The translations under genes were made by a program, and so were the position numbers. The notes below the pieces were generated by a model. That model did no database searches. It saw nothing but the letters and a program-made list of their open reading frames with translations, and was not told the origin of the DNA. A stretch of DNA of 64,000 nt, from the sequence record OK272470.1. The stretch is one strand, 5' to 3'. Below, in pieces: positions 37,235 to 63,154 of this stretch. This stretch comes from Escherichia phage JLBYU50. The stretch's first letter is position 1. Each line of letters opens with the position of its first letter.

Positions 37235-39394
37235 ATGAAACAGGCTATTTTTACTGTAACTCGAAATACGAGAGTAAATGCCAGTTCATTCAGCTATAAG
37301 ACCGTCGATGGAACGGCGGTCGCTGGTAGAGATTATGTAGCTAAACAGGGAACAGTAACGTTCCCTTCTGATGCAGATTCTGCTACTGTAGTGGTTGATG
37401 TATATGAACGTCCGGCAAACTCTTTAGATCTTTATTTTACTCTTGAGATTACTAGCATAAGTCAAAATAACATGATGATCAACGAAGAAATTCGTTGTGT
37501 TATTACGACTGATCAATCGAATACAACCCCACTAACTTGGCCTGTTGTGAAGTCTAGAATGTTTGATCCTAAGTTTTGGACAATAGATTCTCAAGCAACA
37601 GAGAGCTGTTCTATTATCTCTAATGGTGATTCTTTCACAGCAAGAATGGTTAATAGGACAGTGGCTGGTCTTGCTGGGATTATTTGGTCAACTTACGATA
37701 AATATGATCACAAAGGATTAGGCTACCAAGAACATTCTGACTTAAGTAAAGAGAAACTTTGGTTTAAAATGGAACTTAGTCAAGGTGTTCCTGGATTAAA
37801 AGAAGAAAAATTATTGCCATCCTTAACAGTGACACTGAAGGATGAAACAGTTCATTATGTATCTCTAAACTTTTATGCAGAAGAAGTTTCAGAGGACGGT
37901 AAAACAGCAACAATAAAATTAGATTTCTCAAATTTAAAATCTGGGCCAGAAAATGATATTGTTGTTGACACTACACAGATAGATAATATGTTCTTCTCCT
38001 TGATCTCCACAAGGTATCAAGAAATTGAAGATGTTATACCTGTAGACAATATGGATCTTTCCTTTAAGTTTACCATACTAGAGCCTGATACTGGTTACAG
38101 TATGATGAATATGGGTAATTTAAATGTTCCGGCGCACACCATAAGAATGTGTACATCTTATGATGATATGTATAACCTAACCCCAGAGCGAGTTATTTCT
38201 AACACCTATAGATTAGGTTATAGAGATATGATTAACCATTATAATGGTATGTCACACTATTATCAATTTAGTTGGGATGCTGGATCTAATAAATGGGCTT
38301 TGAACAGAACAGAATATTTAAACCCAGCAACAGAAGCCTGGTTTGACAATTTCCACGCTAATGCAAAAGCTATGGGCTACACAGTAATGAACTCCTTAAG
38401 TTTTGAACTTATGAGTACAGTGTGTCCTGTAGAATGGGTACAACATGCTTGGAATGATGATCTTGCTGCTACAGGTTATGAGCCACCAAGTTATGTTTTA
38501 TCTCCTTCAATTGATGAAGGGATGAATTATTTACAAGGTGTAATAAATAAGATAGCTTCTATATCCGCTGCCAATGATCTTCCTGTTATTATTCAGGTTG
38601 GTGAACCGTGGTGGTGGTATAACACAGCTACCAATCTACCGTGTATTTATGATTATACAACCAAAGTTGCATTTAATAATGAAACTGGATTATATGCACA
38701 AGATGTTGGTACAGTTAAGAATTATAAAACTGGTACACCATATGATGAATATTATGCATTCCTATCTAAAACATTAGGACTACGTGTTGCTAAGTTTGCA
38801 ACGGATACTAGATTAGCATATCCTGGAGCGAAAGTTACATTGTTACCATTTGTGCCATCCATTTTGGGTAATGGTATGATGGAGTTTGTTAACTTCCCTA
38901 AAGATTATTATATCCCAGAAAACTTTGACTTTTATTGTTCAGAATGTTATGACTGGTTGTTGGAAGGCAAGATGGAAAGATCTTTCGACGCTATCACAAT
39001 ACCTAATGAGCAACTAGGTTTTAGTTACGATAAGATACATTATCTTGCAGGGTTTGTTCCAGATGCAACTCTAGCACCATTATATGGCTTTGATCCTGAA
39101 TCAAACTATAGAACATATTTGTGGAAAATGATTATAGGCAATATTGTATTGAATGACCAGAAGTTTGTTGGTTTATATCAATACATATGGGCTTACCCAC
39201 AAATAATGCATGATTCAATAACTGTTCTTAATTCAAAATCCCAAGTGTTTTATATGGGTAATGTGCCTTTGAATTGCTACTTGCAAGATATCACTCTTAA
39301 ACAGGTAAATGTTGAGATTGCCACTATAAGTGGAATTACATTAGCCACTAAATCTGGAGAAGATTTAGTAACAACACAAAAATTTTATATATAG
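37235..39394 (+). CDS. tail/baseplate protein (719 aa)
   Basis: ORF track; AAGGAA RBS. Confidence 0.45.
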   Translation: MKQAIFTVTRNTRVNASSFSYKTVDGTAVAGRDYVAKQGTVTFPSDADSATVVVDVYERPANSLDLYFTLEITSISQNNMMINEEIRCVITTDQSNTTPLTWPVVKSRMFDPKFWTIDSQATESCSIISNGDSFTARMVNRTVAGLAGIIWSTYDKYDHKGLGYQEHSDLSKEKLWFKMELSQGVPGLKEEKLLPSLTVTLKDETVHYVSLNFYAEEVSEDGKTATIKLDFSNLKSGPENDIVVDTTQIDNMFFSLISTRYQEIEDVIPVDNMDLSFKFTILEPDTGYSMMNMGNLNVPAHTIRMCTSYDDMYNLTPERVISNTYRLGYRDMINHYNGMSHYYQFSWDAGSNKWALNRTEYLNPATEAWFDNFHANAKAMGYTVMNSLSFELMSTVCPVEWVQHAWNDDLAATGYEPPSYVLSPSIDEGMNYLQGVINKIASISAANDLPVIIQVGEPWWWYNTATNLPCIYDYTTKVAFNNETGLYAQDVGTVKNYKTGTPYDEYYAFLSKTLGLRVAKFATDTRLAYPGAKVTLLPFVPSILGNGMMEFVNFPKDYYIPENFDFYCSECYDWLLEGKMERSFDAITIPNEQLGFSYDKIHYLAGFVPDATLAPLYGFDPESNYRTYLWKMIIGNIVLNDQKFVGLYQYIWAYPQIMHDSITVLNSKSQVFYMGNVPLNCYLQDITLKQVNVEIATISGITLATKSGEDLVTTQKFYI

Positions 39395-39402
39395 GAGTAA
39401 AA

Positions 39403-41976
39403 ATGTCAACTACAATTACTAATTTACCCGAAACATCAAAAGTTAATGGTTCTGATTACCTGGTTTTAGACCAACCTGATAAGACTGTTAAAAGCACAGT
39501 TTCCAACTTTCTTGCTGACACTGGGGTGGTTTTAGCCACCCAGTTGAAAGATACAGATGGAGCAGATTTAATACAATCCTCAAATGGTAATACTGTTCAG
39601 GAAGAGTTGAATAACAATCTTCTTAATGATCGTGAACAGTGGCATCGTAGTCTTGCTGAGGCAGGGTTAACCCTTGTCAACGGTAGCTTTGAAGAAGGGG
39701 CTACAGTAAACAATAAGACGGATGCTGTTTGGCATATTGCTGGTGGGCAGTGCTATACGTGGGGTGGTGAATTTCCTAAAACAGTAGCTGCTGGTTCAAC
39801 TCCAGAAACATCTGGTGGCATTGGTCTTGGTGCATGGGTTAGTGTTGTGGATATGTCATTAAGGGATAATCTTTCAAACTCCAGTAATGATAATTACGGT
39901 GATGCGCTGGTAGCAGTTAAGCAGCCGTATACTACCGCAATAAGTAGAACGCAGCATGATAAAAATGCTGATGTACTTGATATTTCGGATTTTGGTGTAG
40001 ACATAACTGGTGCTTCTGATGAGGGTAGTAAGTTACAACAGATATTTAATGAGTTGGCCGCAGCAGGCAAGACTATTCGTATGCGCGGTTCTGTAAAGAC
40101 TACTATTAACCTAGATATAAGGTGTAACGTGCTGTTTGAGCAGGGTTTCAAACTAACTGGCGTGAAACTAGAAACTGGACCTCAGACTTACATTAATATT
40201 TTTAATCGTAATGTAGATGTAAGCCATATTATCCTAGATGGTATTGTTATGTGTTTCTACCCCGTAAGTTCCACTACTACTGTTAGAAACAAAAGATGTA
40301 TTACGTTTACATCCAACACGTTAGAAGATTCATGTGTTCAGGTGGGCGGTAATAACCTATCTGTACGTAACGTGTTAATTTCTAACAATACTTTTAAGAA
40401 CTCTGGGTCACGTATTCCAACAGCAATTCGCCTAACTAATGTCTCAAATATTGAGGTGAGTTTTAACCTTATCCATGAGTATGGTAGACCTATTTACCAA
40501 ACAGCAACCCGCTCTTTCTCCAACTACAATGTCAATATACACCACAATAATATGGTTTGTGAGTATGGTATAACTCTTGCGGGTACTACTGCTTTTAGGG
40601 TTAGTAAGTTCACAATTGCTGACAATGACATTGTTTGCGAGGTAAGAAATACAGCAACAGGTGGTCGGGATGGTATTGATGTAGTTTATGGTACTAGTGG
40701 TTTGATTACTAACAATAACATAAGGACAAACGGAAGAAGCCTTAGACTGTCTAATACTAAGGTAGATGTACTGTTTAACGATATGATATCCAGCGCAACC
40801 AGTGCATTCTCAGTATTAATGGCGAGTTGTTATGAGTCATCATTTGTTGGTAACACTGTTTTCAATAACTCAACTGCTGAAATTATTGTTGTACATGTGC
40901 AGGATGAAGCTGGTGGGCTTTACCGGAGTAATAACATTCGTGTGGAATCTAATACAATCAAGGGATTTGGTAGGCTGATTCGGGTATTAGATACAAAGGA
41001 TTATGTTGTCATCAATAACAGATTAATCAGAACATCAAACAATGGTAATGCAGTTATTATTGCGGATGGGACTAGTGACAGAGGCCAGGTGCATAGCAAT
41101 GTGGTAGTTGGTCCTGCTGGAGTGGTAGTATCTGATATAGGCGGAACCAACAATGCAACAACCCCTGCTGATACACTGCTGAGTGTTGCAGCTAACAGCA
41201 AGACCATAACAGCCGTGGCGAATGGATTAGTTGATCCAGACTTGAATAATTCGAAGGCATTCATCTTCAATGTTCAGGTGTCTGATGTTCAACTATTACG
41301 TGCGGTATCTTCTACAGGCTCAGGAAATGCTAAAACCGTATCTCAGTTCATGTCGGGTATAACTGGGGCAACTCTGGCATGGAATGGTACTGCCTTCCTA
41401 TCAGAGATGTCTGGACCACCAGATATATTTGTGAATGGTGTACTTCAAGATTCCTATGGTGCAGAAGACTATGTGTTCTACAGATCAGGGATGCTTATTG
41501 ATTCCCAGAATAAACTCAGTGTTAGAGACTTCCAGTGTATTGGGGATGGGGATACCATAAACGATGGGACTGGTAATATGACCCTTCGTAATATGGCAGC
41601 AGCACAATCGGCTGAGGGCGCTATTCACAGTGCTTTCTTCCGTGCTCCTCTTGTTATGAATGGCTCAGTGTATGACCCTACAGTAACAGGTATTGCATCT
41701 TCAGATTTGTTTAGCACAGCTCTAGATCCAAGAATGGCTATAGGACAAAAAGCTGATGGAACCTACGTTATTATTTGTGTTAATGGCAGAAACGCAGATG
41801 GGGTAAGTCCAGGCTGCACTATGCAGCAGCTAGCTTCTAAGTTTGTAGCCCTTGGTTGTATCAACGCAATGAATTTGGATGGCGGCGGTTCAGCTACTCT
41901 TTGGTATAACGGTGCTATCATTAATGACCCGGCGGATGGAAGTGAACGCCCTGTTTACCATTGTATGTATGTGTAA
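39403..41976 (+). CDS. tailspike-like protein: beta-helix body plus C-terminal NLDGGGS domain
   Basis: N/V/I-rich repetitive beta-helix-like middle region; C-terminal ...CINAMNLDGGGSATLWYNGAIINDPADGSERPVYHCM resembles the phosphodiester-glycosidase (NAGPA/DUF2233-type) signature. Confidence 0.55.
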   Translation: MSTTITNLPETSKVNGSDYLVLDQPDKTVKSTVSNFLADTGVVLATQLKDTDGADLIQSSNGNTVQEELNNNLLNDREQWHRSLAEAGLTLVNGSFEEGATVNNKTDAVWHIAGGQCYTWGGEFPKTVAAGSTPETSGGIGLGAWVSVVDMSLRDNLSNSSNDNYGDALVAVKQPYTTAISRTQHDKNADVLDISDFGVDITGASDEGSKLQQIFNELAAAGKTIRMRGSVKTTINLDIRCNVLFEQGFKLTGVKLETGPQTYINIFNRNVDVSHIILDGIVMCFYPVSSTTTVRNKRCITFTSNTLEDSCVQVGGNNLSVRNVLISNNTFKNSGSRIPTAIRLTNVSNIEVSFNLIHEYGRPIYQTATRSFSNYNVNIHHNNMVCEYGITLAGTTAFRVSKFTIADNDIVCEVRNTATGGRDGIDVVYGTSGLITNNNIRTNGRSLRLSNTKVDVLFNDMISSATSAFSVLMASCYESSFVGNTVFNNSTAEIIVVHVQDEAGGLYRSNNIRVESNTIKGFGRLIRVLDTKDYVVINNRLIRTSNNGNAVIIADGTSDRGQVHSNVVVGPAGVVVSDIGGTNNATTPADTLLSVAANSKTITAVANGLVDPDLNNSKAFIFNVQVSDVQLLRAVSSTGSGNAKTVSQFMSGITGATLAWNGTAFLSEMSGPPDIFVNGVLQDSYGAEDYVFYRSGMLIDSQNKLSVRDFQCIGDGDTINDGTGNMTLRNMAAAQSAEGAIHSAFFRAPLVMNGSVYDPTVTGIASSDLFSTALDPRMAIGQKADGTYVIICVNGRNADGVSPGCTMQQLASKFVALGCINAMNLDGGGSATLWYNGAIINDPADGSERPVYHCMYV

Positions 41977-42016
41977 TTATCTGGTGGGACTATGCTAATG
42001 GCGTAGATTTCATAGC

Positions 42017-42045
42017 AAAAAAAAACCCCGCTTCGGCGGGGTAAT
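42017..42045. terminator. GC stem-loop CCCCGC-TTCG-GCGGGG flanked by A-run upstream
   Basis: perfect 6-bp stem; A8 run on the 5' side means the U-tract is on the minus strand although flanking genes are on +. Confidence 0.4.
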
Positions 42046-42071
42046 CATTGAGAATAACAATAGGAGTACAT

Positions 42072-42170
42072 ATGGAATCTCAACTCAGTCAACCTAAGCA
42101 GGTTATCAACGTCAAAGTGAACAAGCAGAGTATCGCTCATGATTTAAAAAGTAATGAGAACGCACTATGA
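42072..42170 (+). CDS. small protein (32 aa)
   Basis: below ORF-track cut-off; AGGAG RBS 6 nt upstream; stop TGA overlaps ATG of next gene (ATGA). Confidence 0.3.
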   Translation: MESQLSQPKQVINVKVNKQSIAHDLKSNENAL

Positions 42171-46098: not shown

Positions 46099-46440
46099 AT
46101 GGAGCTAACAGAAGTATGGGATATCGCTAAAGAGGCGATTATCCCTCTTATTGGCGTAATCTGGGTGGTCTTCAAACAGAAGATAGATGATATGGCAAGT
46201 GATTTGGATAAAATGGAAGACAAATACCGCGAACTAGAAAAGAAGTTGGTGTTTGTTGAATCCACTTATGCTACCAAAGCGGAACTTGCTCAAATGCTTA
46301 ACCAGATCAACTCTACATTAATGGCAAATAACACTGCCTTAGAACAGAAGATTGAAAAAATAATGGATTTAAAAAATGCTCCTGTTCAATTAATGTTAGA
46401 GGAGATTACGAAGCGCACACAAAGTAAGGACAAAAATTAA
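46099..46440 (+). CDS. small protein with N-terminal hydrophobic helix and coiled coil (113 aa)
   Basis: ORF track; IIPLIGVIWVVF segment then heptad-rich region. Confidence 0.4.
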   Translation: MELTEVWDIAKEAIIPLIGVIWVVFKQKIDDMASDLDKMEDKYRELEKKLVFVESTYATKAELAQMLNQINSTLMANNTALEQKIEKIMDLKNAPVQLMLEEITKRTQSKDKN

Positions 46441-48854
46441 TGGCGAATTTTCCAACATATCCTGCTACGACACTAGAACAAGGTGTTGATCTGGTTATAT
46501 TCTCGTCTAACCAGATGCATGATGTTATTAATGGGGATGCTACAGCAACTGTAGAAACCGAAACAGGTTTAATACCTACACTGCGTAAAGCACTTGTTGA
46601 TAACTTCTTCTTTAAGAGTCCTGTTGCTTGGTCAGCAGGATCAACTGAAACTGTATTTAACCAGTTACGTTATTTTGAAAACGGTATCTTGAGTGGGTAC
46701 TATTATGCCCCATCTGCCACTACTGCGAACCCTGTACCTATGCAGGGAACACCTGTAGGAGACAGTAACTGGACTCTGTACGCTCTTAAAACTGAACAGT
46801 TAGCTTCAGATGTGTATCCTTGGTATTTTAAAGGTGCTACAGGATATGAAACAGAAATCAGTCCTCCTTATATCTTTGATAATGCTATTGTCACCATTAA
46901 CGGTGTAATTCAGATTCAAGGTGAAGCATTTACTATCAAAGATAGTAAAATTATTCTGGCAGAACCATTAGGTTTAGATCCGTCTACTGGTCTACCTAAC
47001 AAATTGTTTGCTTTTATTGGTAAAACAACAGCCTCTACTTCTTACGTAGAGAAAAACCTTTTGTCATCCACCACTGGTGCAGCAATGGTTGGTCTTCCAT
47101 CTGGAGGCAACCTGTTACAAGCTCAATACTTTGTAACGCCTGAGCAGTTTGGTGCAATTGGTGATGGAGTTACCGATGATACTCAAGCAATTTTAAAAAC
47201 CATTACTTTCGCTAACACGAATAACATTCAAGTACGTGCAGATAAGAATTATAGATTCACAAGCTCAATTGCTATGTCTGGTATTCGTTGGTATGGTGGT
47301 ACATTCACTGGTAACGGTGGAACAATGATTTCTACTGTGTCCTGTTGGATGGAAAACGTTCGCTTTGAAAAATGTTATGTTAAGATGTTAGGTGGTGATT
47401 GCCGATTCTATCGTAATATCTTCTCCAATGCAACATCTACAGCAGCATTCTTAATGCAAGCAATGACAAGTGAAGGTACGTTGGACTTCAGTTACAACGA
47501 AATGTATGGTTGTAAATATGCGATCCTGCAACAAGGTACTGGAGAAGTAATGACCTACGGGCGTTACTCTAACAACTATATTCACGATATTAAAGGTGAT
47601 GCTATTGAACTTAACGTAGTTCAAAAACACTACACTGAAGGTTTGATTATCGAGAATAACCACATTGCTAACGTAGATGCTTCTGGACAAGGGGCAAACT
47701 GGGGTATTGGTATTGGTGTAGCAGGTAGTGGCCCATATGGTGTTGATGTTCCTGATTCACAATATGTACGTAATTTCAGTATCGTTGGGAATAGGGTTTA
47801 CAATTGCCGTCAATGTTTACACGTTGAAATGGGTAAAAACTTCACAATACGTGATAATGAAGTTTATCCTAACACAGCAGTTTCAACAGGTACAGGTTTA
47901 ACTACTTGTGGTGTTGCATTATACGGATGCCAAGATTTTGAAGTTGATGGTTTAACTGGTTATCTGCTTAATGATCCATCTGTTTCAACACGCATGGTCT
48001 TTATTGACTGGGGTGTTAACAGTGGAAGATATGCGGGGCCACCAATTAACTTTACAATTAAGAATTTGGATATTCCAGAATCTTCAATTGAGATTGCAAC
48101 ATCTGGATCAGATGACTGGGAAAACTCTACAATTGTTAGTAATATCAATTGTAATGTTTTTAAATGGCGTGGGCTACCATCTAGCTCTACCTTTAATAAT
48201 ATTCGTTGCCGTAGTATTGACTTTATTGGTCAACACGGAAGCGGAGAAGGAAGTGGTGGCGGTTTCTATACTCGCAGCCAATTCACGTATATGAAGTGGG
48301 TAGGATGTACAGCACTTAGCGGAGATGAAACAACAGTTTCTTTTGCTAAAATCTACACTGATCGTTGCGATCAGGTTGGAAATAACTTTGGTGTTCCAAC
48401 TGCTGTTGATGGTACAGGTCATCGTGGGCCAGTTTTAACTACTATTTCTGAACAATATTTTACAGCTTATGATGAATTCCCAGGTGGGCGTGAATTCCCT
48501 ACTGGAACAGTTATTCATTGTGCAAGCGGTAAAAAACATGTTGTTACAGTAGGTGGTGCTTTCTTTAGTGCCAACGAGAAAATAAAAGCAACTGTTACAG
48601 GTCAAACCTATCTACAGTCTAATGCTTTAAACTGGGCTAGTAATGGCTACGCTAAAGCAGCAGGTACTAAGATTGTTATTCCAGGTGCAGGTGCAAATGG
48701 CGGCGATCTTGTGACAACTATAGCACGTGCTACATATGTGACAAATAGTTTGTACACAATAGATATTGCAGATCCAATTGTAACACCTACAGCAGAGAAT
48801 ACACAAATTAAAGCTCTGAACCCTGTTACTTTTGTTACTGTCAATAATGCTTAA
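46440..48854 (+). CDS. tailspike with pectate-lyase-type beta-helix (depolymerase-like)
   Basis: FGAIGDGVTDDTQAI near 47147-47190, hallmark N-terminal cap of pectate-lyase-fold tailspikes; 804 aa. Confidence 0.65.
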   Translation: MANFPTYPATTLEQGVDLVIFSSNQMHDVINGDATATVETETGLIPTLRKALVDNFFFKSPVAWSAGSTETVFNQLRYFENGILSGYYYAPSATTANPVPMQGTPVGDSNWTLYALKTEQLASDVYPWYFKGATGYETEISPPYIFDNAIVTINGVIQIQGEAFTIKDSKIILAEPLGLDPSTGLPNKLFAFIGKTTASTSYVEKNLLSSTTGAAMVGLPSGGNLLQAQYFVTPEQFGAIGDGVTDDTQAILKTITFANTNNIQVRADKNYRFTSSIAMSGIRWYGGTFTGNGGTMISTVSCWMENVRFEKCYVKMLGGDCRFYRNIFSNATSTAAFLMQAMTSEGTLDFSYNEMYGCKYAILQQGTGEVMTYGRYSNNYIHDIKGDAIELNVVQKHYTEGLIIENNHIANVDASGQGANWGIGIGVAGSGPYGVDVPDSQYVRNFSIVGNRVYNCRQCLHVEMGKNFTIRDNEVYPNTAVSTGTGLTTCGVALYGCQDFEVDGLTGYLLNDPSVSTRMVFIDWGVNSGRYAGPPINFTIKNLDIPESSIEIATSGSDDWENSTIVSNINCNVFKWRGLPSSSTFNNIRCRSIDFIGQHGSGEGSGGGFYTRSQFTYMKWVGCTALSGDETTVSFAKIYTDRCDQVGNNFGVPTAVDGTGHRGPVLTTISEQYFTAYDEFPGGREFPTGTVIHCASGKKHVVTVGGAFFSANEKIKATVTGQTYLQSNALNWASNGYAKAAGTKIVIPGAGANGGDLVTTIARATYVTNSLYTIDIADPIVTPTAENTQIKALNPVTFVTVNNA

Positions 48855-48895: not shown

Positions 48896-50857
48896 GTGAT
48901 TTTAACACGTCCAAATAGTGCCATTGCAGACATGGTAGAGTCTCGCTATAGAAAGCGTAGAAGTTTTGCAAGTGGTTTTACCTTAAGAGATGCTCGTGAA
49001 GCATTGCTCTTTGAAGCTGACGGTAACTACTATCAGTGGAAAGGTTCTCTACCTAAAGTTGTACCTGCTAACTCTACTCCTACATCTACTGGAGGGATTT
49101 CAGATACAGCTTGGAAAAATGTGGGTAATGCAGATGACATTGCTCAAATAGAATCAGAATTAGATGCTATTGAAGCTGAAATTGAAGATCTTAGAGAATC
49201 CATTCCAGAAGCTGGTAAATCAGCTTACCAGATTGCCGTAGACAATGGTTTCCAAGGTACTGAGACAGACTGGTTGGCTTCTTTAAAAGGTGATCCAGGT
49301 GCTCCATTAAAGCTGCTAGGGACGCTATCTAATACCAACCAATTACCTACAACTGGAAACAATGCAGGAGATGCATGGATTGTAGGCGAGAATATGTATG
49401 CTTGGGATGGTACTGCTTGGAGAAAAGTAAACTCACAGGGGCCAGAAGGTAAATCAGCTTATCAAGTTTGGCTTGCAGCAGGAAACCAAGGTACAGAACT
49501 AGATTATCTTGCTTCAATTAAAGGTGATAAAGGGGAACCTGGCCCAGAGGGGCCACAAGGTGTGCCAGGTAACAATGCTAATGGTTTTGATTACCAAGGT
49601 GCAGCTAATTCCGTTTCAGATCTTCCTTCTGCATCTCCTGGAAACACATCTCAAGCATGGAGTATTGGTACATATCTATACGTGTCAAACGGTGTAGAAT
49701 GGATCAATATGGGCGCTATAGTGGGGCCAAAAGGAGATAAAGGCGACAAAGGAGATAAGGGTAACACTGGTGATTCTGCTTATCAAGTCTGGTTAAATGC
49801 TGGTAACGTTGGTACTATTGACGAATATATTGCCTCTCTGAAAGGAGAAAAAGGTGATAAGGGAGACAAGGGTGATCAAGGTGAGCAGGGTATACAAGGC
49901 TTGACGGGGCCAACTGGTGCAGGGTTGACAATTATTGATATTCTGACTGACACTTCTGAACTACCACAAACTGGAGAAGATGGTGATGGTTATCTGATCA
50001 ATAATGAACTTTGGGTTTGGTTGCAAGGAGCCACACAGTGGACAAATGTTGGTCGTTTAGCTGGTACTCCAATCACTGCAAAAGGACACGTTGCGTCTGC
50101 AAGTGCACTTCCTCCTACAGCCAATTACGGTGATGCTTATCTGACGGAAGATACAGGTCATCTTTACATTTACACCTATGATGAACAAACTCAAACTGCT
50201 GAATATGTAGATATGGGTAGTTTGAAAGGTGATAAGGGTGAAAAAGGTGACGCTGGTACTAACGGTACAGACGGTGCAACTTGGATTGTTAAAACAACAG
50301 ATCCAATCTCTAGTGATGGTAAACAAGGTGATTATGCCTTTAATATCTCCACTGGCGAGGTGTTCTTAAAAACATCTGCAACTGCCTGGACTTCTCAAGG
50401 TACACTGCCTAGCATCACAGATGCACCTAGTGACGGTAAAATTTATGCTCGTAAAGATGGAGCATGGGAAGAACTCACTAGTTCTGTAGATGGTCAAGAT
50501 ATAGTTCCAACAAAAGTAACAGCTAATTTTATAGAGGTTACAGCATACACCAACAACTCTGTTACAGGTGACTGGACACCTCCAGGAACACATAACATGA
50601 ATGTGTTGAATCTTACTGGTAACGCTACTATAAAAGCATGGCCTGGTGTCGAAGATAGCACAAAACCTAAACCATTCTCTGCAATAGTTTATCTTATCCA
50701 AGATGCCACTGGGGGTCATACTGTTACTTTAGATCCATCTTACAAAGTAATTGGTTCTAGTGATATTAATACAGATCCTAACGGAGTAACAATACTACAA
50801 CTAACATATTGTGGTATTGGCGATTACGTGGATGCTATTGTTGCTAAACGCACATAA
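48896..50857 (+). CDS. tail fibre with collagen-like G-X-Y tracts and internal triplication
   Basis: GTG start after AAAGGAG; GDKGEPGPEGPQGVPG, GPKGDKGDKGDKGNTGDS, KGEKGDKGDKGDQGEQGIQGLTGPTGAG, GDKGEKGDAGTNGTDGA; three copies of SAYQ.W..AGN.GT..DY.AS.KG. Confidence 0.6.
   Translation: MILTRPNSAIADMVESRYRKRRSFASGFTLRDAREALLFEADGNYYQWKGSLPKVVPANSTPTSTGGISDTAWKNVGNADDIAQIESELDAIEAEIEDLRESIPEAGKSAYQIAVDNGFQGTETDWLASLKGDPGAPLKLLGTLSNTNQLPTTGNNAGDAWIVGENMYAWDGTAWRKVNSQGPEGKSAYQVWLAAGNQGTELDYLASIKGDKGEPGPEGPQGVPGNNANGFDYQGAANSVSDLPSASPGNTSQAWSIGTYLYVSNGVEWINMGAIVGPKGDKGDKGDKGNTGDSAYQVWLNAGNVGTIDEYIASLKGEKGDKGDKGDQGEQGIQGLTGPTGAGLTIIDILTDTSELPQTGEDGDGYLINNELWVWLQGATQWTNVGRLAGTPITAKGHVASASALPPTANYGDAYLTEDTGHLYIYTYDEQTQTAEYVDMGSLKGDKGEKGDAGTNGTDGATWIVKTTDPISSDGKQGDYAFNISTGEVFLKTSATAWTSQGTLPSITDAPSDGKIYARKDGAWEELTSSVDGQDIVPTKVTANFIEVTAYTNNSVTGDWTPPGTHNMNVLNLTGNATIKAWPGVEDSTKPKPFSAIVYLIQDATGGHTVTLDPSYKVIGSSDINTDPNGVTILQLTYCGIGDYVDAIVAKRT
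49520..50280 (+). repeat. collagen-like triplet-repeat coding tracts (GGT/GAT/AAR-rich)
   Basis: repetitive ggtgataarggngan units at about 49522-49570, 49724-49775, 49840-49925 and 50228-50280. Confidence 0.6.
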
Positions 50858-50896: not shown

Positions 50897-53716
50897 ATGT
50901 ATCCTATTCCTTTATTTATGTCAACAACATCAGCTTCAGTAGTAACAGCTACATCTATAACCACTTCCTCTATTGGTATTGCAATAGTTGGTAGTAAAAA
51001 GCAACTGACATACACAGTTTCACCGGAAGATGGTGCGTTATTTGATATAGCTTTTTCATCTTCAGATAATACCAAAATGGTTATAGATAATAGTGGTATG
51101 ATGGAGTTTGTTGCCGAAGGTGGTTTTGATGCAATAATGACAGCTAAAAATAATTTAGGTGCTGTCTTAACTGATCAATCTGGTGGTTATGCTTCAGAAT
51201 TAAGCGTGTACACTGAAAGTCTATCAGCTATGGATGTAGGCACTACTCAACAGTTGGTTGCTACAATCAGTCCAGAAGGTGCTAAAGATCTTCCAGACAT
51301 GGTAATTACGTACACCACAACAGATCCAGAAGTAGCTACTGTAAGCCCTACAGGATTAATAACTGCTCTTAAAGATGGTAATTGCCGTATAGGTTGTACT
51401 GCAACTTATCAAGGAACAGTGGTGGCCTCTGATAGTTCTTATTTAGGTGTTAATGCTATTCCTGTTATTTCTAATGTAACAGCCGTGGCAAACAGCTATG
51501 GAGACGTTCGTGTTGCTTGGGATGTAGCTGATCCGCTAGATGGTGATACTTATACTGTAGAAGTATTAGATTTAAGTAATAATAGTGTTCAGTGGACTAC
51601 AACAACCACGAATACTTACGCTTACTTTGATATCTCTGACTCTATTCCTCTTTATGGGTTTGCTCCAACATACCTTAAAATTAGCGTTAAGAGCACCAAA
51701 GCAGCAGCCGTTATCTTTAATAACTCAATAGCTACAGATGATTCGTTCATTAAAGAAGTTATTGTTTTTGCTGGACAAGATAACGTAAATGCACACTTTA
51801 CAGAACTATCTGGTGCAAATAAAGCAGCAATGAGTAGCACAACAGCCCGTAATGCATATGCTACGCAACGTGGTTTAGCAAATGCTGAAGTTCTTCCGTT
51901 AAATACAGCTTCTGGATCATCAGCAGCAGATAAATATGCTGACGATAAAGCTGGAACAGGTACACCAGACAACTACTGGTATGATCTGGATAACACAGCA
52001 GATGGGCCATGCTTAACTAACTTTATCACTAAAGTCACACCTTATGCAAGTAAGGTTAAAGCCATTATTTGGGGACAAGGTGAAAATGATGCTGTATCAT
52101 CATCTTCAACTGTTGCAGGTAGATACAGTAACACTACACGTTACCATGATGCTACGATAGCTATCTTTGATAAGATGCGTACAATAGTTCCTGCTTCTCA
52201 AGCAAAAATTGTTTGGCAGATCCTGGGACGTTCTTATTTATATGGTGTAGAAGTTAATGGTGTGGATTGGCAGAAGTACAGAAATGTACAAAGAACCATC
52301 TCTACAGCACGTGATGATGTTATCATTGGTTCTTGGGTAGATGGTGCTGAACGTTACAGTGGTTATGTTTATGAAGAAGGTATTGATGGTCGTATCCATT
52401 ATATTTCTTCTGTATACCAAACAGCAGCTACAAAACTTGCTAAATCAGCAGCAGACGGTACAGACCTAACATCAACGTCACCTGTTTGGGTTGATATGGC
52501 TGTTCCAACTGGAGCAACAGCTACTTCCCAATCTAATCAAGATACAATTTTAGTATGGGATGCTCAAGGCTATAGTAAACACTACTTCCGTAATATTAAC
52601 GTCTTAACAGCATCTGTATTAACTGAACAAACGCTTAATACGAACAGCTATACGTTTACCTATGCAGATCAAGTAGAACAATATGGTTTTGCAGCAGGAA
52701 CTACTATATTTGATGTTGCATATTATGATGAAGCAAATGATGTGTTATCTCCTTTAGTACGTTTTAATGTTAACGTTACAGCAGGAACCGTAGAAGATAA
52801 ACCTGTAGTGATGGATTATGATTTAACACAAGAAACTCTTCCATCAGATGTTAAGGTTAATGGTGGGAACTCTTTTGCTCGTGCTTCTGGAGATACACTT
52901 GTAGCCACTAACACCTTGGTTGCTCCGTTGGAGTATGTTGGCACTACCCCTGTAGGTAGACGTGTAACAGCTAACACAGCTACACAAATTTTTGTCAACA
53001 ACGCCTTAACAAGCGCAAGCCCGTGGGTAAAGACCAACTTAACTGTTTCAACTTCATCTGATAAATCTCCGGCTGGAACTACTGCCAATGTATTCAAATT
53101 AACTCCGACTACAACATCTGGTAGTCATATCTTAACTGCAACATATACTAACGCGTACAACATATATGCCGGACGTAACTGGTCTGCCTCTGTTTTCTTG
53201 AAAGCGAACGGGATTACTAAGGCCAAACTAAGATTAAAAGCAGGAACTGAAGTTAATGAGGGTACTTTTGATTTAGCAGCAGGTACATTTACAGGAAGTG
53301 AAGCTAATATTATATCTATGGGTAACGGTTGGTATCGTGCTATTCTGCATAAAACAGGGATAGCCAAACAGTCCTCCATAAGTTTTGAAATAATTGCCTT
53401 GGATGCAACTGGTGCGGAGATTTTCGCTGGGGATGGTACTAGTAACCTTGCAGTTTGGTTGCCACAGCTTGAAGGTGCTCCTACAGGAGAAACATCAAAA
53501 GCTGGAGCGCCTTATGTCTGCACATATCCTGGAAGTTTAGGAGGAGTATCCTTCACTATACCAAGGAACGGACATACTGGTGTGGATGTTTACTATTCCA
53601 ACGGGGACGTTGTTCGTGACGTATTCTCTGGTACGGCATCTACTTGGACAATAAACTACTCCAGCTTGTACGATTGGGGATCAGTCTTTATTACAGGTTT
53701 GAAATATTACGACTAA
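50897..53716 (+). CDS. tail fibre/adhesin with Ig-like (Big_2-type) segment and SGNH/SASA-like esterase-fold domain
   Basis: 939 aa; VGTTQQLVATISPEG...ATVSPTGLITALKDGNCRIGCTATYQG resembles Big_2; VIVFAGQDN (about 51771) and IWGQGENDA (about 52071) resemble sialate-O-acetylesterase blocks I and III. Confidence 0.55.
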   Translation: MYPIPLFMSTTSASVVTATSITTSSIGIAIVGSKKQLTYTVSPEDGALFDIAFSSSDNTKMVIDNSGMMEFVAEGGFDAIMTAKNNLGAVLTDQSGGYASELSVYTESLSAMDVGTTQQLVATISPEGAKDLPDMVITYTTTDPEVATVSPTGLITALKDGNCRIGCTATYQGTVVASDSSYLGVNAIPVISNVTAVANSYGDVRVAWDVADPLDGDTYTVEVLDLSNNSVQWTTTTTNTYAYFDISDSIPLYGFAPTYLKISVKSTKAAAVIFNNSIATDDSFIKEVIVFAGQDNVNAHFTELSGANKAAMSSTTARNAYATQRGLANAEVLPLNTASGSSAADKYADDKAGTGTPDNYWYDLDNTADGPCLTNFITKVTPYASKVKAIIWGQGENDAVSSSSTVAGRYSNTTRYHDATIAIFDKMRTIVPASQAKIVWQILGRSYLYGVEVNGVDWQKYRNVQRTISTARDDVIIGSWVDGAERYSGYVYEEGIDGRIHYISSVYQTAATKLAKSAADGTDLTSTSPVWVDMAVPTGATATSQSNQDTILVWDAQGYSKHYFRNINVLTASVLTEQTLNTNSYTFTYADQVEQYGFAAGTTIFDVAYYDEANDVLSPLVRFNVNVTAGTVEDKPVVMDYDLTQETLPSDVKVNGGNSFARASGDTLVATNTLVAPLEYVGTTPVGRRVTANTATQIFVNNALTSASPWVKTNLTVSTSSDKSPAGTTANVFKLTPTTTSGSHILTATYTNAYNIYAGRNWSASVFLKANGITKAKLRLKAGTEVNEGTFDLAAGTFTGSEANIISMGNGWYRAILHKTGIAKQSSISFEIIALDATGAEIFAGDGTSNLAVWLPQLEGAPTGETSKAGAPYVCTYPGSLGGVSFTIPRNGHTGVDVYYSNGDVVRDVFSGTASTWTINYSSLYDWGSVFITGLKYYD

Positions 53717-53751: not shown

Positions 53752-54183
53752 TTAATCAGTGAAAATTACGCTTACATCTTCTTTAGAAAAGAGTTTATGA
53801 TCTTCACCTTTTGTCTCAAGAGTTTCATACAGGTTAAGAAGTTCTGAAACATCTTTCTCTACCAGTTTCTTCAATGTTGCAATTTTCTGTTTGCGATTCT
53901 TAATACGTTCAGCTACAACCTTACGTTGGTATCCAGCAGTACGATAACCTGAGAAAGTTACACCAGTGAGACTTGCAGTTACAGGATCGTAATGACGTTC
54001 AATCTGAAATTTATTAAAAGGTACAGCGTCATCACGAATAATCTTCCCGCCATTACTTACTTGACGAAGACCAGTAACTTGTTCTAGTCGTGCCATAGAA
54101 ATCTTTGGAGACAGACCAGAGTCTAGGTTCATACCATTGTTAATCAGTGCTTTCAGGGTGATTTTGCTGTTCAGTGTACTCAT
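53752..54183 (-). CDS. hypothetical protein (143 aa)
   Basis: ORF track; 5' end overlaps the methyltransferase gene by 44 nt, so the true start may be the internal Met (MNLDSGL). Confidence 0.4.
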   Translation of the reverse strand: MSTLNSKITLKALINNGMNLDSGLSPKISMARLEQVTGLRQVSNGGKIIRDDAVPFNKFQIERHYDPVTASLTGVTFSGYRTAGYQRKVVAERIKNRKQKIATLKKLVEKDVSELLNLYETLETKGEDHKLFSKEDVSVIFTD

Positions 54184-54871
54184 TTAGTCGTTCCTCCGCT
54201 TGCTTAAAAATATTTACATCGGCTTCACAGCCTAAGTATTCTCTACCTGTTAAAAGTGCCGCAACTTGTGTTGTTGCACTTCCAGAGAAGAAGTCTAAGA
54301 CTACATCTCCTTCGTTGGTGTGTATATTAATAAGGTCACAAAACAAAGTCAAGTGTTTTTGTGTTGGATGAAAACGATCTGCTCCTTGATAGATAGGATA
54401 CTCAAACACACCCTTATGGTAGGAAGCATTGAAGGTTGGCTTAGAACCTTTAACACAAACAATAGCCATTTCTTTAGCGTTACTAAGGTAGTTAACACCA
54501 CTGTTGATGGGTACAGGGTTTGTTTTAATCCATTCAATAGTACGGAACATACGAAAACCAAGCGGTTCAAGGATTTCACGTAGCTCCTGGATCTTCCAGA
54601 TATCATACCAAACTATGCAAGTACCACCTTTTCTAAGCACCCTGTAGGCTTCTTTGAATACTTCTTTAAAGTAAGGAATATCTACAACATCCCAATCACC
54701 AAAGTTGTAAGATACACGGAATCTATCCGTATCTTTTCCAGTAGGCTCTCCAGATTGAAAATTTGTGTCACGAGAAATAGCATATGGTGGGTCAGTAAGA
54801 ATCAAATCTACACTATTGCTTTCGAGGGTTTGCAGGTAGTTTAATGCGGTGTTGTTTACAAATTCGCTCAT
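54140..54871 (-). CDS. DNA N6-adenine (amino) methyltransferase, beta-class
   Basis: catalytic DPPY (LILTDPPYAI) near N-terminus, HPTQKHL block, SAM-binding FFSGSATT near C-terminus; motif order IV before I. Confidence 0.75.
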   Translation of the reverse strand: MSEFVNNTALNYLQTLESNSVDLILTDPPYAISRDTNFQSGEPTGKDTDRFRVSYNFGDWDVVDIPYFKEVFKEAYRVLRKGGTCIVWYDIWKIQELREILEPLGFRMFRTIEWIKTNPVPINSGVNYLSNAKEMAIVCVKGSKPTFNASYHKGVFEYPIYQGADRFHPTQKHLTLFCDLINIHTNEGDVVLDFFSGSATTQVAALLTGREYLGCEADVNIFKQAEERLNEYTEQQNHPESTD

Positions 54872-54879
54872 TATATCTC

Positions 54880-54910
54880 CTTCAAAGAAAAGGAGCCGTT
54901 AGGCTCCTTA
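54880..54910 (-). terminator. rho-independent terminator (minus strand)
   Basis: AAGGAGCC-GTTA-GGCTCCTT; on minus strand followed by TTTTCTTTGAA. Confidence 0.55.
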
Positions 54911-54931
54911 TATTCACACAATATTTAACTA

Positions 54932-55879
54932 TTAGAAACAGTGCAGGAAGTTTCGACCATACTGCAAACCAATAGGAGCAAATGGGATATCATCATCGAA
55001 ATCTTGAACAACAGGTTCTGGTTCTTTCGGTGCTGGCTCTTTCTTCTCTACTTTTTTAGTTTCTTTCTTAACTTCTTGTACTGGGGTAGACATTCCACGG
55101 ATAGCAGCAGCTACTTTATCAGACAAAGCAAGAACTTCACGAGCAGCTTCAATAATCTCTTCTGCCGTTACAGTTTTACCTGTATGATCACGACAAGCGT
55201 TAAGAATTGCGTGTCCAACTGAAGCACCAAGATCATAATCAGTCACATCAACGCCACGATCTTTAGCAATTTCTGCTTTCAGAGTAACAGTTGCAGATTG
55301 TACCACACCAGCCAAGTCGAAAGCATCACCTTTCACACCAGCACGTAGAAGCTCCAGAGCGCCGTTTACAGCGTGTCCTGTTTCAATCCCTACGGTATCA
55401 CGTTTTTTGTAGTTAGGCTTGCTACCTTCGTTATTAGATGGCTTATTTCCACCTTTTGAAGAAGATTGTGCTTGCTGAACACCTTCTGTTGAAAGAATAG
55501 TGATTTTACCTTTAGAGGAATTGTAGTATGTTTTGCCATTCCATTCAGAAGGTTTAACATCCATAGTTAGTTCTACACCTTTTTCGATAGTAACCCACTT
55601 GTCACCATCTTTAACTTGCAGGTTTTCATGTTCTGGATGCAGTTTAACTTCACCTAGGCTAACCCAAACACCTTTATCATCAGCACTAGCACCTTTCTCT
55701 TTAATAAGCAGAGATGCTTTGTGAGTTGATTCAATTTTCTTATCTGGCTGACCTGCAACCTTAATATAAGAGACTTTCATTTCATCAAACTTATCCAGTT
55801 TGACATATTCAACGATACCTTCAGCCCAGAATGCTTCTTTTTTAGTACGACGGTCGATTTCAGAATTAATTACTGGCAT
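54932..55879 (-). CDS. ssb: single-stranded DNA-binding protein with internal acidic DFDDDIPF motif
   Basis: OB-fold-like N-terminal half, Gly/Ser/Asn-rich linker, acidic DFDDDIPF identical to bacterial SSB C-terminal tip, followed by 15 extra residues. Confidence 0.65.
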   Translation of the reverse strand: MPVINSEIDRRTKKEAFWAEGIVEYVKLDKFDEMKVSYIKVAGQPDKKIESTHKASLLIKEKGASADDKGVWVSLGEVKLHPEHENLQVKDGDKWVTIEKGVELTMDVKPSEWNGKTYYNSSKGKITILSTEGVQQAQSSSKGGNKPSNNEGSKPNYKKRDTVGIETGHAVNGALELLRAGVKGDAFDLAGVVQSATVTLKAEIAKDRGVDVTDYDLGASVGHAILNACRDHTGKTVTAEEIIEAAREVLALSDKVAAAIRGMSTPVQEVKKETKKVEKKEPAPKEPEPVVQDFDDDIPFAPIGLQYGRNFLHCF

Positions 55880-55895
55880 AAATTCTCCTCTATAA

Positions 55896-56294
55896 TTACA
55901 TTACTTTAACACAAAACTCTCGTAAAAGAGTAGCGTCAGTTTCTTCCAACAGGTATTTACCAAGACCAATACCAAATCCTATTTCACCACTTTCAAAATG
56001 GAGGATTTGTATCTTTTCTCCACCAAGATTAATTACTTTTGCTTTTCCAGGATTATCCAAAACATCTCGTATTGTATCCTGTAGTAGCATAAGCTCACGT
56101 TTTGTGATAGTGGTTTCAGATATCTCTTTGTTTTCTACTCTCACTGTTAAACGATTGTATCCACCAAAGAGACATAGTATTTGAATAAAAAAGGTATTAT
56201 CTTGAGGTTCAACATCTTTTTTGGTTAGCTCAAGACGATTAGTTTCTCTACTGTAGAACGTCTCGACTAAGATTTTAGAACGATTATCTGTCAT
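55896..56294 (-). CDS. hypothetical protein (132 aa)
   Basis: ORF track. Confidence 0.45.
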   Translation of the reverse strand: MTDNRSKILVETFYSRETNRLELTKKDVEPQDNTFFIQILCLFGGYNRLTVRVENKEISETTITKRELMLLQDTIRDVLDNPGKAKVINLGGEKIQILHFESGEIGFGIGLGKYLLEETDATLLREFCVKVM

Positions 56295-56304
56295 TCAAGT
56301 CCTC

Positions 56305-56334
56305 ATAATAACACATAATTATAATGTTTGTCAA
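56305..56334 (-). promoter_or_regulatory. sigma70-like promoter (minus strand)
   Basis: rc reads TTGACA (56334..56329), 18-nt spacer, TATTAT; upstream of 55896..56294 gene. Confidence 0.4.
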
Positions 56335-56337
56335 CAC

Positions 56338-56931: not shown

Positions 56932-56959
56932 ATTTTCTCCTATCTCTTATGGTCTTTGC

Positions 56960-57045
56960 GTTATTCTAGATGTTCAAACATCTAATTATGAAATGGTTTA
57001 AAAGTGTGGAACAACCTTGGCAATAATAGGTTGTCCCACATAAAA
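56960..57045. other. pair of stem-loops downstream of DNA polymerase gene
   Basis: TAGATGTT-CA-AACATCTA (about 56968-56985) and GGAACAACCT...AGGTTGTCC (about 57013-57040). Confidence 0.35.
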
Positions 57046-57068
57046 ACTCCTTTAAAATCAAAGAGATG

Positions 57069-59648: not shown

Positions 59649-59716
59649 TCTCCCTCCTTAAAATATTTCTAAAGTCTTAATTTGTTAATACTGTACCATA
59701 AATTAATTGTTTTGTA

Positions 59717-59745
59717 AAGGGGCTTTCGCCCCTTCTTGTTATTTA
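59717..59745. terminator. GC stem-loop AAGGGGC-TTTC-GCCCCTT with T-rich tract on + strand
   Basis: perfect 7-bp stem between two minus-strand genes; U-tract orientation is + strand. Confidence 0.35.
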
Positions 59746-60134: not shown

Positions 60135-60144
60135 ATTTCTCTCC

Positions 60145-61917: not shown

Positions 61918-61929
61918 ATGATTCTCCTA

Positions 61930-63143: not shown

Positions 63144-63154
63144 ATCGCTCCTTA

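What the first reader, a model, noticed from the sequence alone, without database searches (positions are those of the whole stretch)
39403..41976. Two-domain tailspike: beta-helix body fused to a C-terminal NLDGGGS (phosphodiester-glycosidase-like) domain
Seen: the middle region is a repetitive N/V/I-rich beta-helix-like sequence; the last about 150 aa end in ...CINAMNLDGGGSATLWYNGAIINDPADGSERPVYHCM. Established: NLDGGGS is the hallmark of the NAGPA/DUF2233 phosphodiester glycosidase family. Inference: the spike may cleave sugar-phosphate linkages (capsule, teichoic-acid-like or phosphorylated O-antigen) in addition to or instead of glycosidic bonds.
Basis: partly seen in the sequence, partly recalled or inferred. 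Interest (0 to 1): 0.45.

Follow-up and report, generated by a model that had tools for sequence, protein, structure and literature searches.

The report
Tailspike with phosphodiester-glycosidase tip domain
This gene of a phi92-like E. coli phage encodes a tail spike whose far end is a complete enzyme domain of the NAGPA family, which cuts sugar-1-phosphate links, so the phage probably digests a phosphate-linked host surface polysaccharide by a chemistry never tested for any phage spike.

Summary
ORF 39403..41976 (+, 857 aa) has a confident beta-helix body and ends in NLDGGGS...ERPVYHCMYV. Pfam NAGPA scores 89 bits (cut-off 25). A pLDDT-89 model of aa 590-857 matches only NAGPA/DUF2233 structures (TM about 0.68). 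The catalytic DGGGS loop and the phosphate-binding Arg are invariant in 45 relatives. No chaperone (Peptidase_S74) domain is present.

Corrections: the NAGPA domain is about 260 aa, not 150. The protein has four modules: anchor, Tail_spike_N, beta-helix and NAGPA.

The gene sits in the slot of the phi92 gp143 endosialidase. The beta-helix+NAGPA unit is an obligate pair, because every full-length relative of this beta-helix found and checked among 1.84 billion representatives ends in NAGPA. It is grafted onto phi92-type, CBA120-type, prophage and P22 head-binding anchors, and in a P22-like phage it holds the gene-9 position.

The likeliest function is hydrolysis of glycosyl-1-phosphate bonds in a phosphate-linked O-antigen or capsule. 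The substrate and the activity are untested. No paper in the searchable library describes such a spike. I rate it a new variant of a known kind, of moderate interest.

The parts
39393..39397 (+). Ribosome-binding site AGGAG, 5 nt upstream of the ATG
   Evidence: Read directly from the sequence. The same motif is annotated upstream of phi92 gene 143.
39403..39564 (+). N-terminal virion/baseplate anchor (aa 1-54)
   Evidence: 52 of 54 residues are identical to the N-terminus of the phi92 gp143 endosialidase precursor, and nothing after that matches. The first 445 nt are conserved at 88-95% in 81 phage records.
39676..39849 (+). Tail_spike_N domain (PF18668, aa 92-149). The recombination junction to the specificity module lies just after it, at about aa 150-157.
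   Evidence: Pfam gives 68.8 bits. PDB phmmer hits fall on the N-terminal domains of CBA120 TSP3, TSP4 and TSP1. Alignment A2 shows that different anchors join the same module at this point.
39865..41190 (+). Neck/cap plus right-handed parallel beta-helix body (aa 155-596)
   Evidence: AlphaFold2 gives pLDDT 80-95 over aa 190-570. Foldseek matches beta-helix tailspikes and glycosidases. Pfam gives a weak NosD hit. An exhaustive HMMER search shows that its full-length relatives all carry a C-terminal NAGPA domain.
41191..41973 (+). Complete NAGPA/DUF2233-type phosphodiester-glycosidase catalytic domain (aa 597-857), running to the last residue
   Evidence: Pfam PF09992 gives 89.2 bits. The domain model has pLDDT 89.1 and pTM 0.90. 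Foldseek against the PDB returns only NAGPA-family structures, with E from 6e-15 to 9e-8 and TM 0.60-0.69, and the next hit is at E=0.5. A profile search matches 6u11 at E=5e-26.
41878..41892 (+). DGGGS catalytic loop (D826-S830), equivalent to human NAGPA D286-S290
   Evidence: Translation. D826, G828, G829 and S830 are conserved in 45 of 45 family members. PMC13474241 describes the motif as invariant and D286 as catalytic.
41947..41949 (+). R849, aligned with the phosphate-binding R316 of human NAGPA
   Evidence: The profile alignment places E848-R849 on CPR316 of the vertebrate enzymes. R849 is conserved in 45 of 45 members.
41791..41793 (+). N797, at the position of human T260 (phosphate hydrogen bond)
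   Evidence: Alignment to 6pku/6u11. The position is T, S or N in 42 of 44 family members.

Best explanation
The gene encodes one of the receptor-binding tailspikes of a Justusliebigvirus (phi92-like) E. coli myovirus, sitting in the exchangeable slot that holds the endosialidase in phi92. Residues 1-54 dock it to the baseplate. Residues 90-150 form the Tail_spike_N domain that also marks the recombination junction. Residues 155-596 form a beta-helix shaft, presumably trimeric, which probably binds the polymer. Residues 597-857 are a complete NAGPA-type enzyme at the far end of the spike. By analogy with the uncovering enzyme, this domain hydrolyses the C1-O bond between a hexose or hexosamine and a phosphate (a glycosyl-1-phosphodiester). 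It would do so in a host surface glycan whose repeat units, or side groups, are joined through sugar-1-phosphate, such as a phosphate-linked O-antigen or a teichoic-acid-like capsule. The products would be a reducing sugar and a phosphomonoester. Cutting or stripping the polymer lets the phage reach the outer membrane. Shown here: domain identity, fold, intact catalytic and phosphate-site residues, the obligate beta-helix-NAGPA coupling, and the tailspike context. Inferred: trimer formation, catalytic activity, endo versus exo action, and the identity of the sugar and glycan.
For: Pfam NAGPA scores 89 bits and Tail_spike_N 69 bits. The NAGPA-domain model has pLDDT 89 and matches only NAGPA/DUF2233 structures over about 285 columns with TM 0.6-0.69. 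A profile alignment to the vertebrate enzymes puts D826GGGS on DGGGS, R849 on R316 and N797 on T260, and these positions are conserved in 45 relatives down to 38% identity. Across the wider family the NAGPA domain is more conserved (38-46%) than the beta-helix (20-30%). The beta-helix has no invariant Asp or Glu but has conserved Arg residues: R415 invariant, R337 and R399 nearly so. An exhaustive HMMER search of the beta-helix against 1.84 billion representatives found only about 14 full-length matches. Thirteen were checked: nine by Pfam here, plus P0001, P0008, P0063 and P0067 from precomputed Pfam. All thirteen end in NAGPA, whereas a control that matched only the cap region does not. The same module sits on phi92-type, CBA120/Kuttervirus-type, prophage and P22 Head_binding anchors. 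In a 40.9-kb P22-like phage contig it occupies the gene-9 tailspike position. The slot corresponds to phi92 gp143 EndoN92, a capsule depolymerase. Glycosyl-1-phosphate backbones exist in E. coli, for example the STEC O181 O-antigen (PMC4380953), and the only close phage relative, PHB05, was isolated on STEC.
Against: No enzymatic data exist for any phage NAGPA-domain protein in the searchable literature. The human residue E226, which reads the N-acetyl group, is not conserved, so the substrate sugar is unknown. The characterised enzyme is an exo-acting uncapping enzyme, not an endo-depolymerase. Beta-helix tailspikes usually carry their own active site, and the alignment at 20-25% identity may hide catalytic carboxylates. 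No lysogen was found in 5,426 complete E. coli genomes, so no host serotype could be tied to the module.
Confidence: 0.6

Rival explanations
1. The beta-helix is the real depolymerase (a glycosidase or lyase acting on glycosidic bonds). The NAGPA domain is an accessory second enzyme that strips sugar-1-phosphate side decorations, as the G7C esterase spike modifies its receptor, or that only uncaps chain ends.
For: Foldseek matches of the body are to catalytic beta-helix glycosidases and tailspikes such as CBA120 TSP3, GH110 and HK620. The characterised NAGPA enzyme removes a terminal GlcNAc cap rather than cutting a backbone (PMC13474241). Non-depolymerising enzymatic tailspikes are known, for example G7C gp63.1 (PMC10743462).
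Against: No invariant acidic residue was found in the beta-helix across 17 family members. The beta-helix evolves faster than the NAGPA domain. This beta-helix lineage was never found without NAGPA.
Confidence: 0.25
2. The NAGPA-like domain is catalytically silent. It serves as a carbohydrate- or phosphate-binding lectin tip, or as a C-terminal trimer cap, and the spike only binds its receptor.
For: Enzyme folds are often reused as binding modules in phage receptor-binding proteins. E226 of the human sugar pocket is not conserved. Oligomer geometry could not be modelled here.
Against: The catalytic Asp, the whole DGGGS loop and both phosphate ligands are conserved in 45 of 45 or nearly all members across 38-97% identity. 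Lectin derivatives normally lose such conservation.
Confidence: 0.1
3. The C-terminal region is an intramolecular chaperone that is cleaved off after trimer assembly, as in phi92 gp143 and other endosialidases and in phi29 gp12.
For: The same slot in phi92 holds a protein with exactly such a cleaved C-terminal domain.
Against: There is no Peptidase_S74 or other chaperone HMM hit. The region folds as a complete NAGPA catalytic core and matches nothing else in the PDB. Only aa 1-54 are shared with gp143.
Confidence: 0.02

Closest known systems
Mannose-6-phosphate uncovering enzyme NAGPA and bacterial DUF2233 proteins (PF09992; PDB 6PKU, 6U11, 3OHG)
   Same: The same fold over the whole catalytic core of about 260 aa (TM about 0.68). 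The same DGGGS loop with the catalytic Asp, and the same phosphate-binding Arg and Thr/Ser/Asn position.
   Different: Sequence identity is only 17-21%. There is no propeptide, EGF stalk or disulfide loop. The E226 contact to the N-acetyl group is not conserved. The domain is fused to the end of a phage beta-helix spike. The presumed substrate is a bacterial surface polymer, not an N-glycan cap.
phi92 gp143 (EndoN92 endosialidase tailspike)
   Same: The same genomic slot after the gp141 and gp142 homologues (958 and 719 aa in both phages), and the same first 54 residues. Both are exchangeable capsule or O-antigen specificity cassettes of a multi-spike myovirus.
   Different: The enzyme is entirely different (a sialidase beta-propeller plus a cleaved chaperone, against a beta-helix plus NAGPA), and no C-terminal chaperone is present here.
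CBA120 (Kuttervirus) tailspikes TSP1-4 and the P22 gp9 tailspike
   Same: The Tail_spike_N domain and the beta-helix body. Relatives of this module are found on a CBA120-type anchor and on a P22 Head_binding anchor in the gene-9 position.
   Different: Those spikes carry their glycosidase site on or between the beta-helices and end in small beta-sandwich domains. None has a NAGPA domain.
NAGPA-domain proteins of Gram-positive phages (SPbeta YomE, Staphylococcus sciuri phage vB_SscM-1, Bacillus phage VMY22, Curtobacterium phage Ayka tail spike and predicted prophage depolymerases)
   Same: The same enzyme family in phage tail or virion proteins. A role on phosphate-containing wall polymers has been proposed from modelling only (PMC9862828).
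   Different: The relationship is distant: 28-48% identity over the C-terminal third to half of the domain only. The architectures differ, without this beta-helix, and the hosts have teichoic acids. None has been tested biochemically in the library searched.
Escherichia phage vB_EcoM_PHB05 gp135 (YP_009984503, annotated 'tail spike protein')
   Same: A full-length orthologue in the same slot, 87% identical in nucleotides and 88% in amino acids.
   Different: The window allele is a distinct variant (NAGPA domain 85% identical, beta-helix 92%). PHB05 has about 590 bp more downstream, carrying two small genes.

Membership tests
NAGPA / DUF2233 phosphodiester glycosidase (PF09992) | Sequence matches the family HMM above its gathering score | tested here: met
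   89.2 bits against a cut-off of 25, E=4.6e-25, profile positions 11-168 of 169.
NAGPA / DUF2233 phosphodiester glycosidase (PF09992) | Fold of the catalytic core (three beta-sheet subdomains) | tested here: met
   The model has pLDDT 89.1. Foldseek against the PDB gives 15 hits at E<=0.001, all from the NAGPA family, with TM 0.60-0.69 over about 285 columns, and the next hit is at E=0.5.
NAGPA / DUF2233 phosphodiester glycosidase (PF09992) | Invariant DGGGS loop with the catalytic Asp (human D286) | tested here: met
   D826-G-G-G-S830. D826, G828, G829 and S830 are conserved in 45 of 45 relatives and G827 in 43 of 45. The motif is defined in PMC13474241.
NAGPA / DUF2233 phosphodiester glycosidase (PF09992) | Phosphate subsite (human R316, T260 and the G289 backbone) | tested here: met
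   R849 aligns with R316 and is conserved in 45 of 45. Position 797 (N here) is T, S or N in 42 of 44. G829 is invariant. This rests on alignment only, without a coordinate superposition.
NAGPA / DUF2233 phosphodiester glycosidase (PF09992) | GlcNAc N-acetyl recognition (human E226 and T227) | tested here: inconclusive
   The loop 758-DPTVTGI-764 aligns with this region. T762 (T, S or N in 38 of 45) may correspond to T227, but no conserved acid sits at the E226 position.
NAGPA / DUF2233 phosphodiester glycosidase (PF09992) | Hydrolysis of a sugar-1-phosphodiester at the C1-O bond | not testable with these tools
   This needs an enzyme assay.
Phage tailspike (beta-helix receptor-binding protein) | N-terminal domain homologous to a virion-attached spike | tested here: met
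   aa 1-54 are 96% identical to phi92 gp143. Tail_spike_N PF18668 scores 68.8 bits.
Phage tailspike (beta-helix receptor-binding protein) | Right-handed parallel beta-helix body | tested here: met
   AlphaFold2 model, and Foldseek top hits 5w6f, 6nw9, 6f7k and HK620.
Phage tailspike (beta-helix receptor-binding protein) | Position in the tail/baseplate gene module | tested here: met
   The gene lies between the gp142 homologue and the baseplate J-like gene. Synteny with PHB05 and phi92 is exact.
Phage tailspike (beta-helix receptor-binding protein) | Homotrimer present in the virion | not testable with these tools
   Only monomer prediction was available, and there are no proteomic data.
Tailspikes with a C-terminal intramolecular chaperone (Peptidase_S74 type) | C-terminal S74 or triple-beta-helix chaperone domain with an autocleavage site | tested here: not met
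   No Pfam hit down to E=0.1. The C-terminus is a NAGPA fold.
Beta-helix glycoside hydrolase or lyase depolymerases | Conserved catalytic carboxylates (or a lyase Lys/Arg-Tyr set) on the beta-helix | tested here: inconclusive
   There is no invariant Asp or Glu in the beta-helix in the 17-sequence alignment A6. The invariant residues are G315, N346, S371, G394, R415, N539 and N566. The alignment is weak at 20-30% identity.

The most novel reading that the evidence does not exclude
The beta-helix+NAGPA cassette defines an uncharacterised enzymatic class of phage depolymerase for Gram-negative hosts. It would be a glycosyl-phosphate hydrolase that cuts phosphate-bridged O-antigens or capsules at the sugar-1-phosphate bond. 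The beta-helix would serve as a polyanion-binding track with conserved Arg residues, not as the catalyst. The cassette moves as one unit among phi92-like, Kuttervirus-like, P22-like, T7-like and lambdoid phages.
Probability: 0.45. Interest if true: 0.62.

Novelty: new variant of a known kind. Interest (0 to 1): 0.5.

Why it matters
The phage depolymerases characterised for Gram-negative hosts, as far as I know them, are glycosidases, lyases or esterases. If this prediction holds, a spike that hydrolyses sugar-1-phosphate bridges would add a fourth chemistry. It would explain how phages handle phosphate-linked O-antigens and teichoic-acid-like capsules, which include STEC and invasive E. coli types. 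It would also provide a specific reagent for typing, cleaving or stripping such polymers. Finally, it would give the large bacterial DUF2233/NAGPA family, whose natural substrates are essentially unknown, a tractable member with a definable substrate. The claim can be tested directly with one recombinant protein and one point mutant.

Tried and rejected
1. I tried to infer the target glycan from lysogens. The prophage copy P0009 lies on a 33-kb draft contig next to int/xis at ybhC. Neither it, the window module nor the P22-like copy matches any of 5,426 complete E. coli genomes, so no serotype link was obtained.
2. The Citrobacter homologue P0076 could not be located.
3. The first full-length AlphaFold2 model was poor in aa 628-741. 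It was replaced by a domain model built on a deeper alignment.
4. MAFFT misaligned the N-terminal half of the domain against generic bacterial NAGPA proteins. I relied on profile alignments instead.
5. NCBIfam gave no hit.
6. The Gorelik 2020 structure paper is not held. Residue roles were taken from PMC13474241.
7. The literature search on 'NAGPA' by word start mostly matched an author name.
It returned mainly generic Verrucomicrobia NAGPA proteins and only one phage-type copy, in Rodentibacter.
9. The chaperone-domain idea was rejected.
Full report
**Observation.** The window holds an 857-codon ORF at 39403..41976 on the + strand. An AGGAG ribosome-binding site lies 5 nt upstream. NLDGGGS is encoded at 41872-41892 and the protein ends ERPVYHCMYV. 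Pfam finds NAGPA (PF09992; E=4.6e-25, 89.2 bits, cut-off 25; aa 680-857), Tail_spike_N (PF18668; 68.8 bits; aa 92-149) and a weak NosD beta-helix signal, and no Peptidase_S74. PHROGs assigns the N-terminal part to tail spike and tail fibre families.

**Genomic setting.** The window comes from a Justusliebigvirus/Phapecoctavirus-type E. coli myovirus. Over 28-50 kb it is 96-99% identical to many such phages. For this gene, however, only the first 445 nt are shared by the 81 matching records. The full length is matched only by Escherichia phage vB_EcoM_PHB05, at 87%. In PHB05 and phi92 the two upstream genes have exactly the same sizes as in the window (958 and 719 aa). The gene that follows them in phi92 is gp143, the EndoN92 endosialidase precursor with its cleaved C-terminal chaperone. 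The window protein shares only residues 1-54 with gp143, at 96% identity. The gene is therefore the exchangeable specificity cassette of this multi-spike phage.

**Anatomy.** A full-length AlphaFold2 model (mean pLDDT 66) gives a confident right-handed beta-helix for about aa 190-570, but it is poor in aa 628-741. Its Foldseek hits are beta-helix tailspikes and glycosidases, with CBA120 TSP3 first and guinea-pig NAGPA further down the list. After collecting more relatives, I modelled aa 590-857 alone and obtained pLDDT 89.1 and pTM 0.90. That model matches only NAGPA/DUF2233 structures in the PDB: 6pku, 6u11, 6pky, 6pkg, 6pki, 3ohg, 5h3k and 6ozd. E-values run from 6e-15 to 9e-8 and TM from 0.60 to 0.69 over about 285 columns, and the next hit has E=0.5. 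The enzyme domain is thus a complete catalytic core of about 260 aa (597-857), not a 150-aa tail.

**Active site.** A 2026 cryo-EM study of human NAGPA (PMC13474241) makes the following assignments.
- It identifies an invariant DGGGS motif with catalytic D286.
- The phosphate is held by R316, T260 and the G289 backbone.
- The GlcNAc is held by E226, T227 and the G287 backbone.
- The reaction cleaves the glycosidic C-O bond with retention of configuration.

Profile alignment of the phage family to the vertebrate enzymes puts D826-S830 on DGGGS, E848-R849 on CPR316, and G795-R796-N797 on G258-Q259-T260. In a 45-sequence alignment of the tailspike-type family (38-97% identity), D826, G828, G829, S830 and R849 are conserved in 45 of 45. 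Position 797 is T, S or N in 42 of 44. Position 762 is T, S or N in 38 of 45. No conserved acid occupies the E226 position. The catalytic and phosphate-binding machinery is therefore intact, and the sugar specificity is open.

**The beta-helix and NAGPA form one unit.**
- Close relatives of aa 230-857 are rare: 9 clusters among 5.8 billion.
- These relatives carry at least five unrelated N-terminal anchors joined at about aa 150-157. They include a CBA120/Kuttervirus-like anchor and an E. coli lambdoid prophage copy that NCBI already names 'phosphodiester glycosidase family protein'.
- A profile search with the domain finds a second tier of 670-770-aa proteins with Pectate_lyase_3/Beta_helix/NosD plus NAGPA, at 38-46% identity in the domain. 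They include phage contigs and prophage remnants of Frischella and Gilliamella, and a 670-aa protein of the T7-like Erwinia phage VL73.
- BLAST shows that the beta-helix of these proteins is homologous to ours but more diverged: 20-30% against 38-46% for the NAGPA domain, and 61% against 76% in the nearer pair P0008/P0009.
- An exhaustive HMMER search of the beta-helix alone against 1.84 billion representatives returned 320 hits at E<=0.001. Almost all of them cover only the first 60-130 residues, the common neck/cap. About 14 cover the whole beta-helix.
- Thirteen of those full-length matches were checked: nine by Pfam here, and P0001, P0008, P0063 and P0067 from precomputed Pfam. All thirteen end in a NAGPA domain at their C-terminus. 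A control that matched only the cap has a K1-lyase C-terminus instead.
- One of the full-length matches, P0165, has the P22 Head_binding domain. It occupies the gene-9 tailspike position of a 40.9-kb P22-like phage contig, between the ejection-protein genes and int/xis. In P22-like phages gene 9 encodes the tailspike that is the receptor-binding protein (my own knowledge), so the cassette appears to suffice there as the receptor-binding and receptor-processing protein.
- In a 17-sequence alignment the beta-helix has no invariant Asp or Glu. Its invariant residues are G315, N346, S371, G394, R415, N539 and N566, with R337 and R399 nearly invariant. This fits a binding track for an anionic polymer better than a glycosidase site, although the alignment is weak at this divergence.

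**Mechanism proposed.** The spike docks through aa 1-54 and projects a beta-helix shaft, presumably trimeric, with three NAGPA domains at its tip. These domains hydrolyse glycosyl-1-phosphodiester bonds of a host surface polymer. The result is either depolymerisation, if the sugar-1-phosphate is in the backbone, or removal of sugar-1-phosphate-linked decorations. Suitable substrates exist in E. coli. The STEC O181 O-antigen has repeat units joined by alpha-Glc-(1-P-4)-QuiNAc (PMC4380953). Teichoic-acid-like group 2 capsules are documented (PMC13171606). ECA-PG is anchored through a phosphodiester (PMC10743462). From my own knowledge, K51 and O152, O172 and O173 also contain hexosamine- or hexose-1-phosphate links. 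PHB05 was isolated on STEC. None of this identifies the actual target.

**Rivals.**
- The beta-helix is the depolymerase and NAGPA an accessory uncapping or debranching enzyme (0.25).
- The NAGPA domain is a silent lectin or cap domain (0.10). The complete conservation of the catalytic loop argues against this.
- The C-terminal region is a cleaved chaperone (0.02). The HMM, fold and alignment results contradict this.

**Comparison with what is known.** The domain is a bona fide member of PF09992 by HMM, fold and motif. Membership in the functional sense, meaning actual activity, is untested. NAGPA-fold domains already occur in phage proteins of Gram-positive hosts: SPbeta YomE, S. sciuri myoviruses, VMY22, LP65 and the Ayka tail spike. 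Curtobacterium prophage 'depolymerases' have been modelled on 6PKU (PMC9862828). Within the library searched, no paper combines 'phosphodiester glycosidase' with tailspike or with phage biology, and none reports an activity. The phage-type domain is rare. It appears in 48 of 50,697 phage records, and among Gram-negative phages only in PHB05 and two Erwinia phages. A pattern-limited scan of 2.9 million IMG/VR contigs gave 33 loci, of which 7 are near full length. Among species-representative genomes there is one full-length copy, in Rodentibacter.

**Verdict.** Annotation pipelines already see the two Pfam domains, so the domain call itself is not new. What is new here is the evidence for an obligate, horizontally mobile beta-helix+NAGPA cassette with an intact phosphate-sugar hydrolase site, sitting in the endosialidase slot of a phi92-like phage and in the gene-9 slot of a P22-like phage. 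I rate it a new variant of a known kind, with interest 0.5.

Noticed in passing
window 37235-39394 (+): The 719-aa homologue of phi92 gp142 carries Pfam Calx-beta, NCTSP_N and TIM-barrel_NCTSP ('non-contractile tail sheath protein') domains (275 bits), although this phage has a contractile tail. Relatives annotate it variously as a tail fibre or as hypothetical.
   Followed up: no
window 41977-42166: The intergenic stretch after the tailspike has a GC-rich hairpin at 42025-42042, preceded by a run of nine A (so it looks like a terminator only on the minus strand). A 31-codon ORF (42073-42168) with its own AGGAG site overlaps the start of the next gene. PHB05 has about 590 bp more here, carrying two small annotated genes.
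   Followed up: partly
window 46440-48854, 48896-50857, 50897-53716 (+): Three further large tail genes lie downstream. By synteny with PHB05 and phi92 they are the colanidase tailspike (804 aa), a tail fibre (653 aa, GTG start) and a tail protein (939 aa). The phage therefore carries several receptor-binding proteins, as phi92 does.
   Followed up: partly
L123 10001-12520 (ENA ERZ27268030 k141_35700): A 40.9-kb P22-like phage contig has Head_binding + beta-helix + NAGPA in the gene-9 position. Its structural genes are only about 77% identical to Salmonella Lederbergvirus phages over 20% of the length, so the host is unknown.
   Followed up: partly
L006 8001-10031 (Frischella perrara-type contig): A 676-aa beta-helix+NAGPA protein without any N-terminal anchor lies directly after an endolysin/spanin cassette in a decayed prophage. 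It is followed by a protein with a faint Peptidase_S74 signal. It may be a free (non-virion) depolymerase or a remnant.
   Followed up: no
window 1-8000 and 54000-64000: GC skew is negative at both ends and positive from about 8 kb to 54 kb. This fits a change of transcription direction at the borders of the structural module.
   Followed up: no
window 39403-41976 compared with P0001 and PHB05: The cassette is mosaic. An unnamed metagenomic protein (P0001) is 97-98% identical in both the beta-helix and NAGPA but has a different anchor. PHB05 has the same anchor but only 92% (beta-helix) and 85% (NAGPA) identity. This suggests recent recombination at the aa 150-157 junction.
   Followed up: partly
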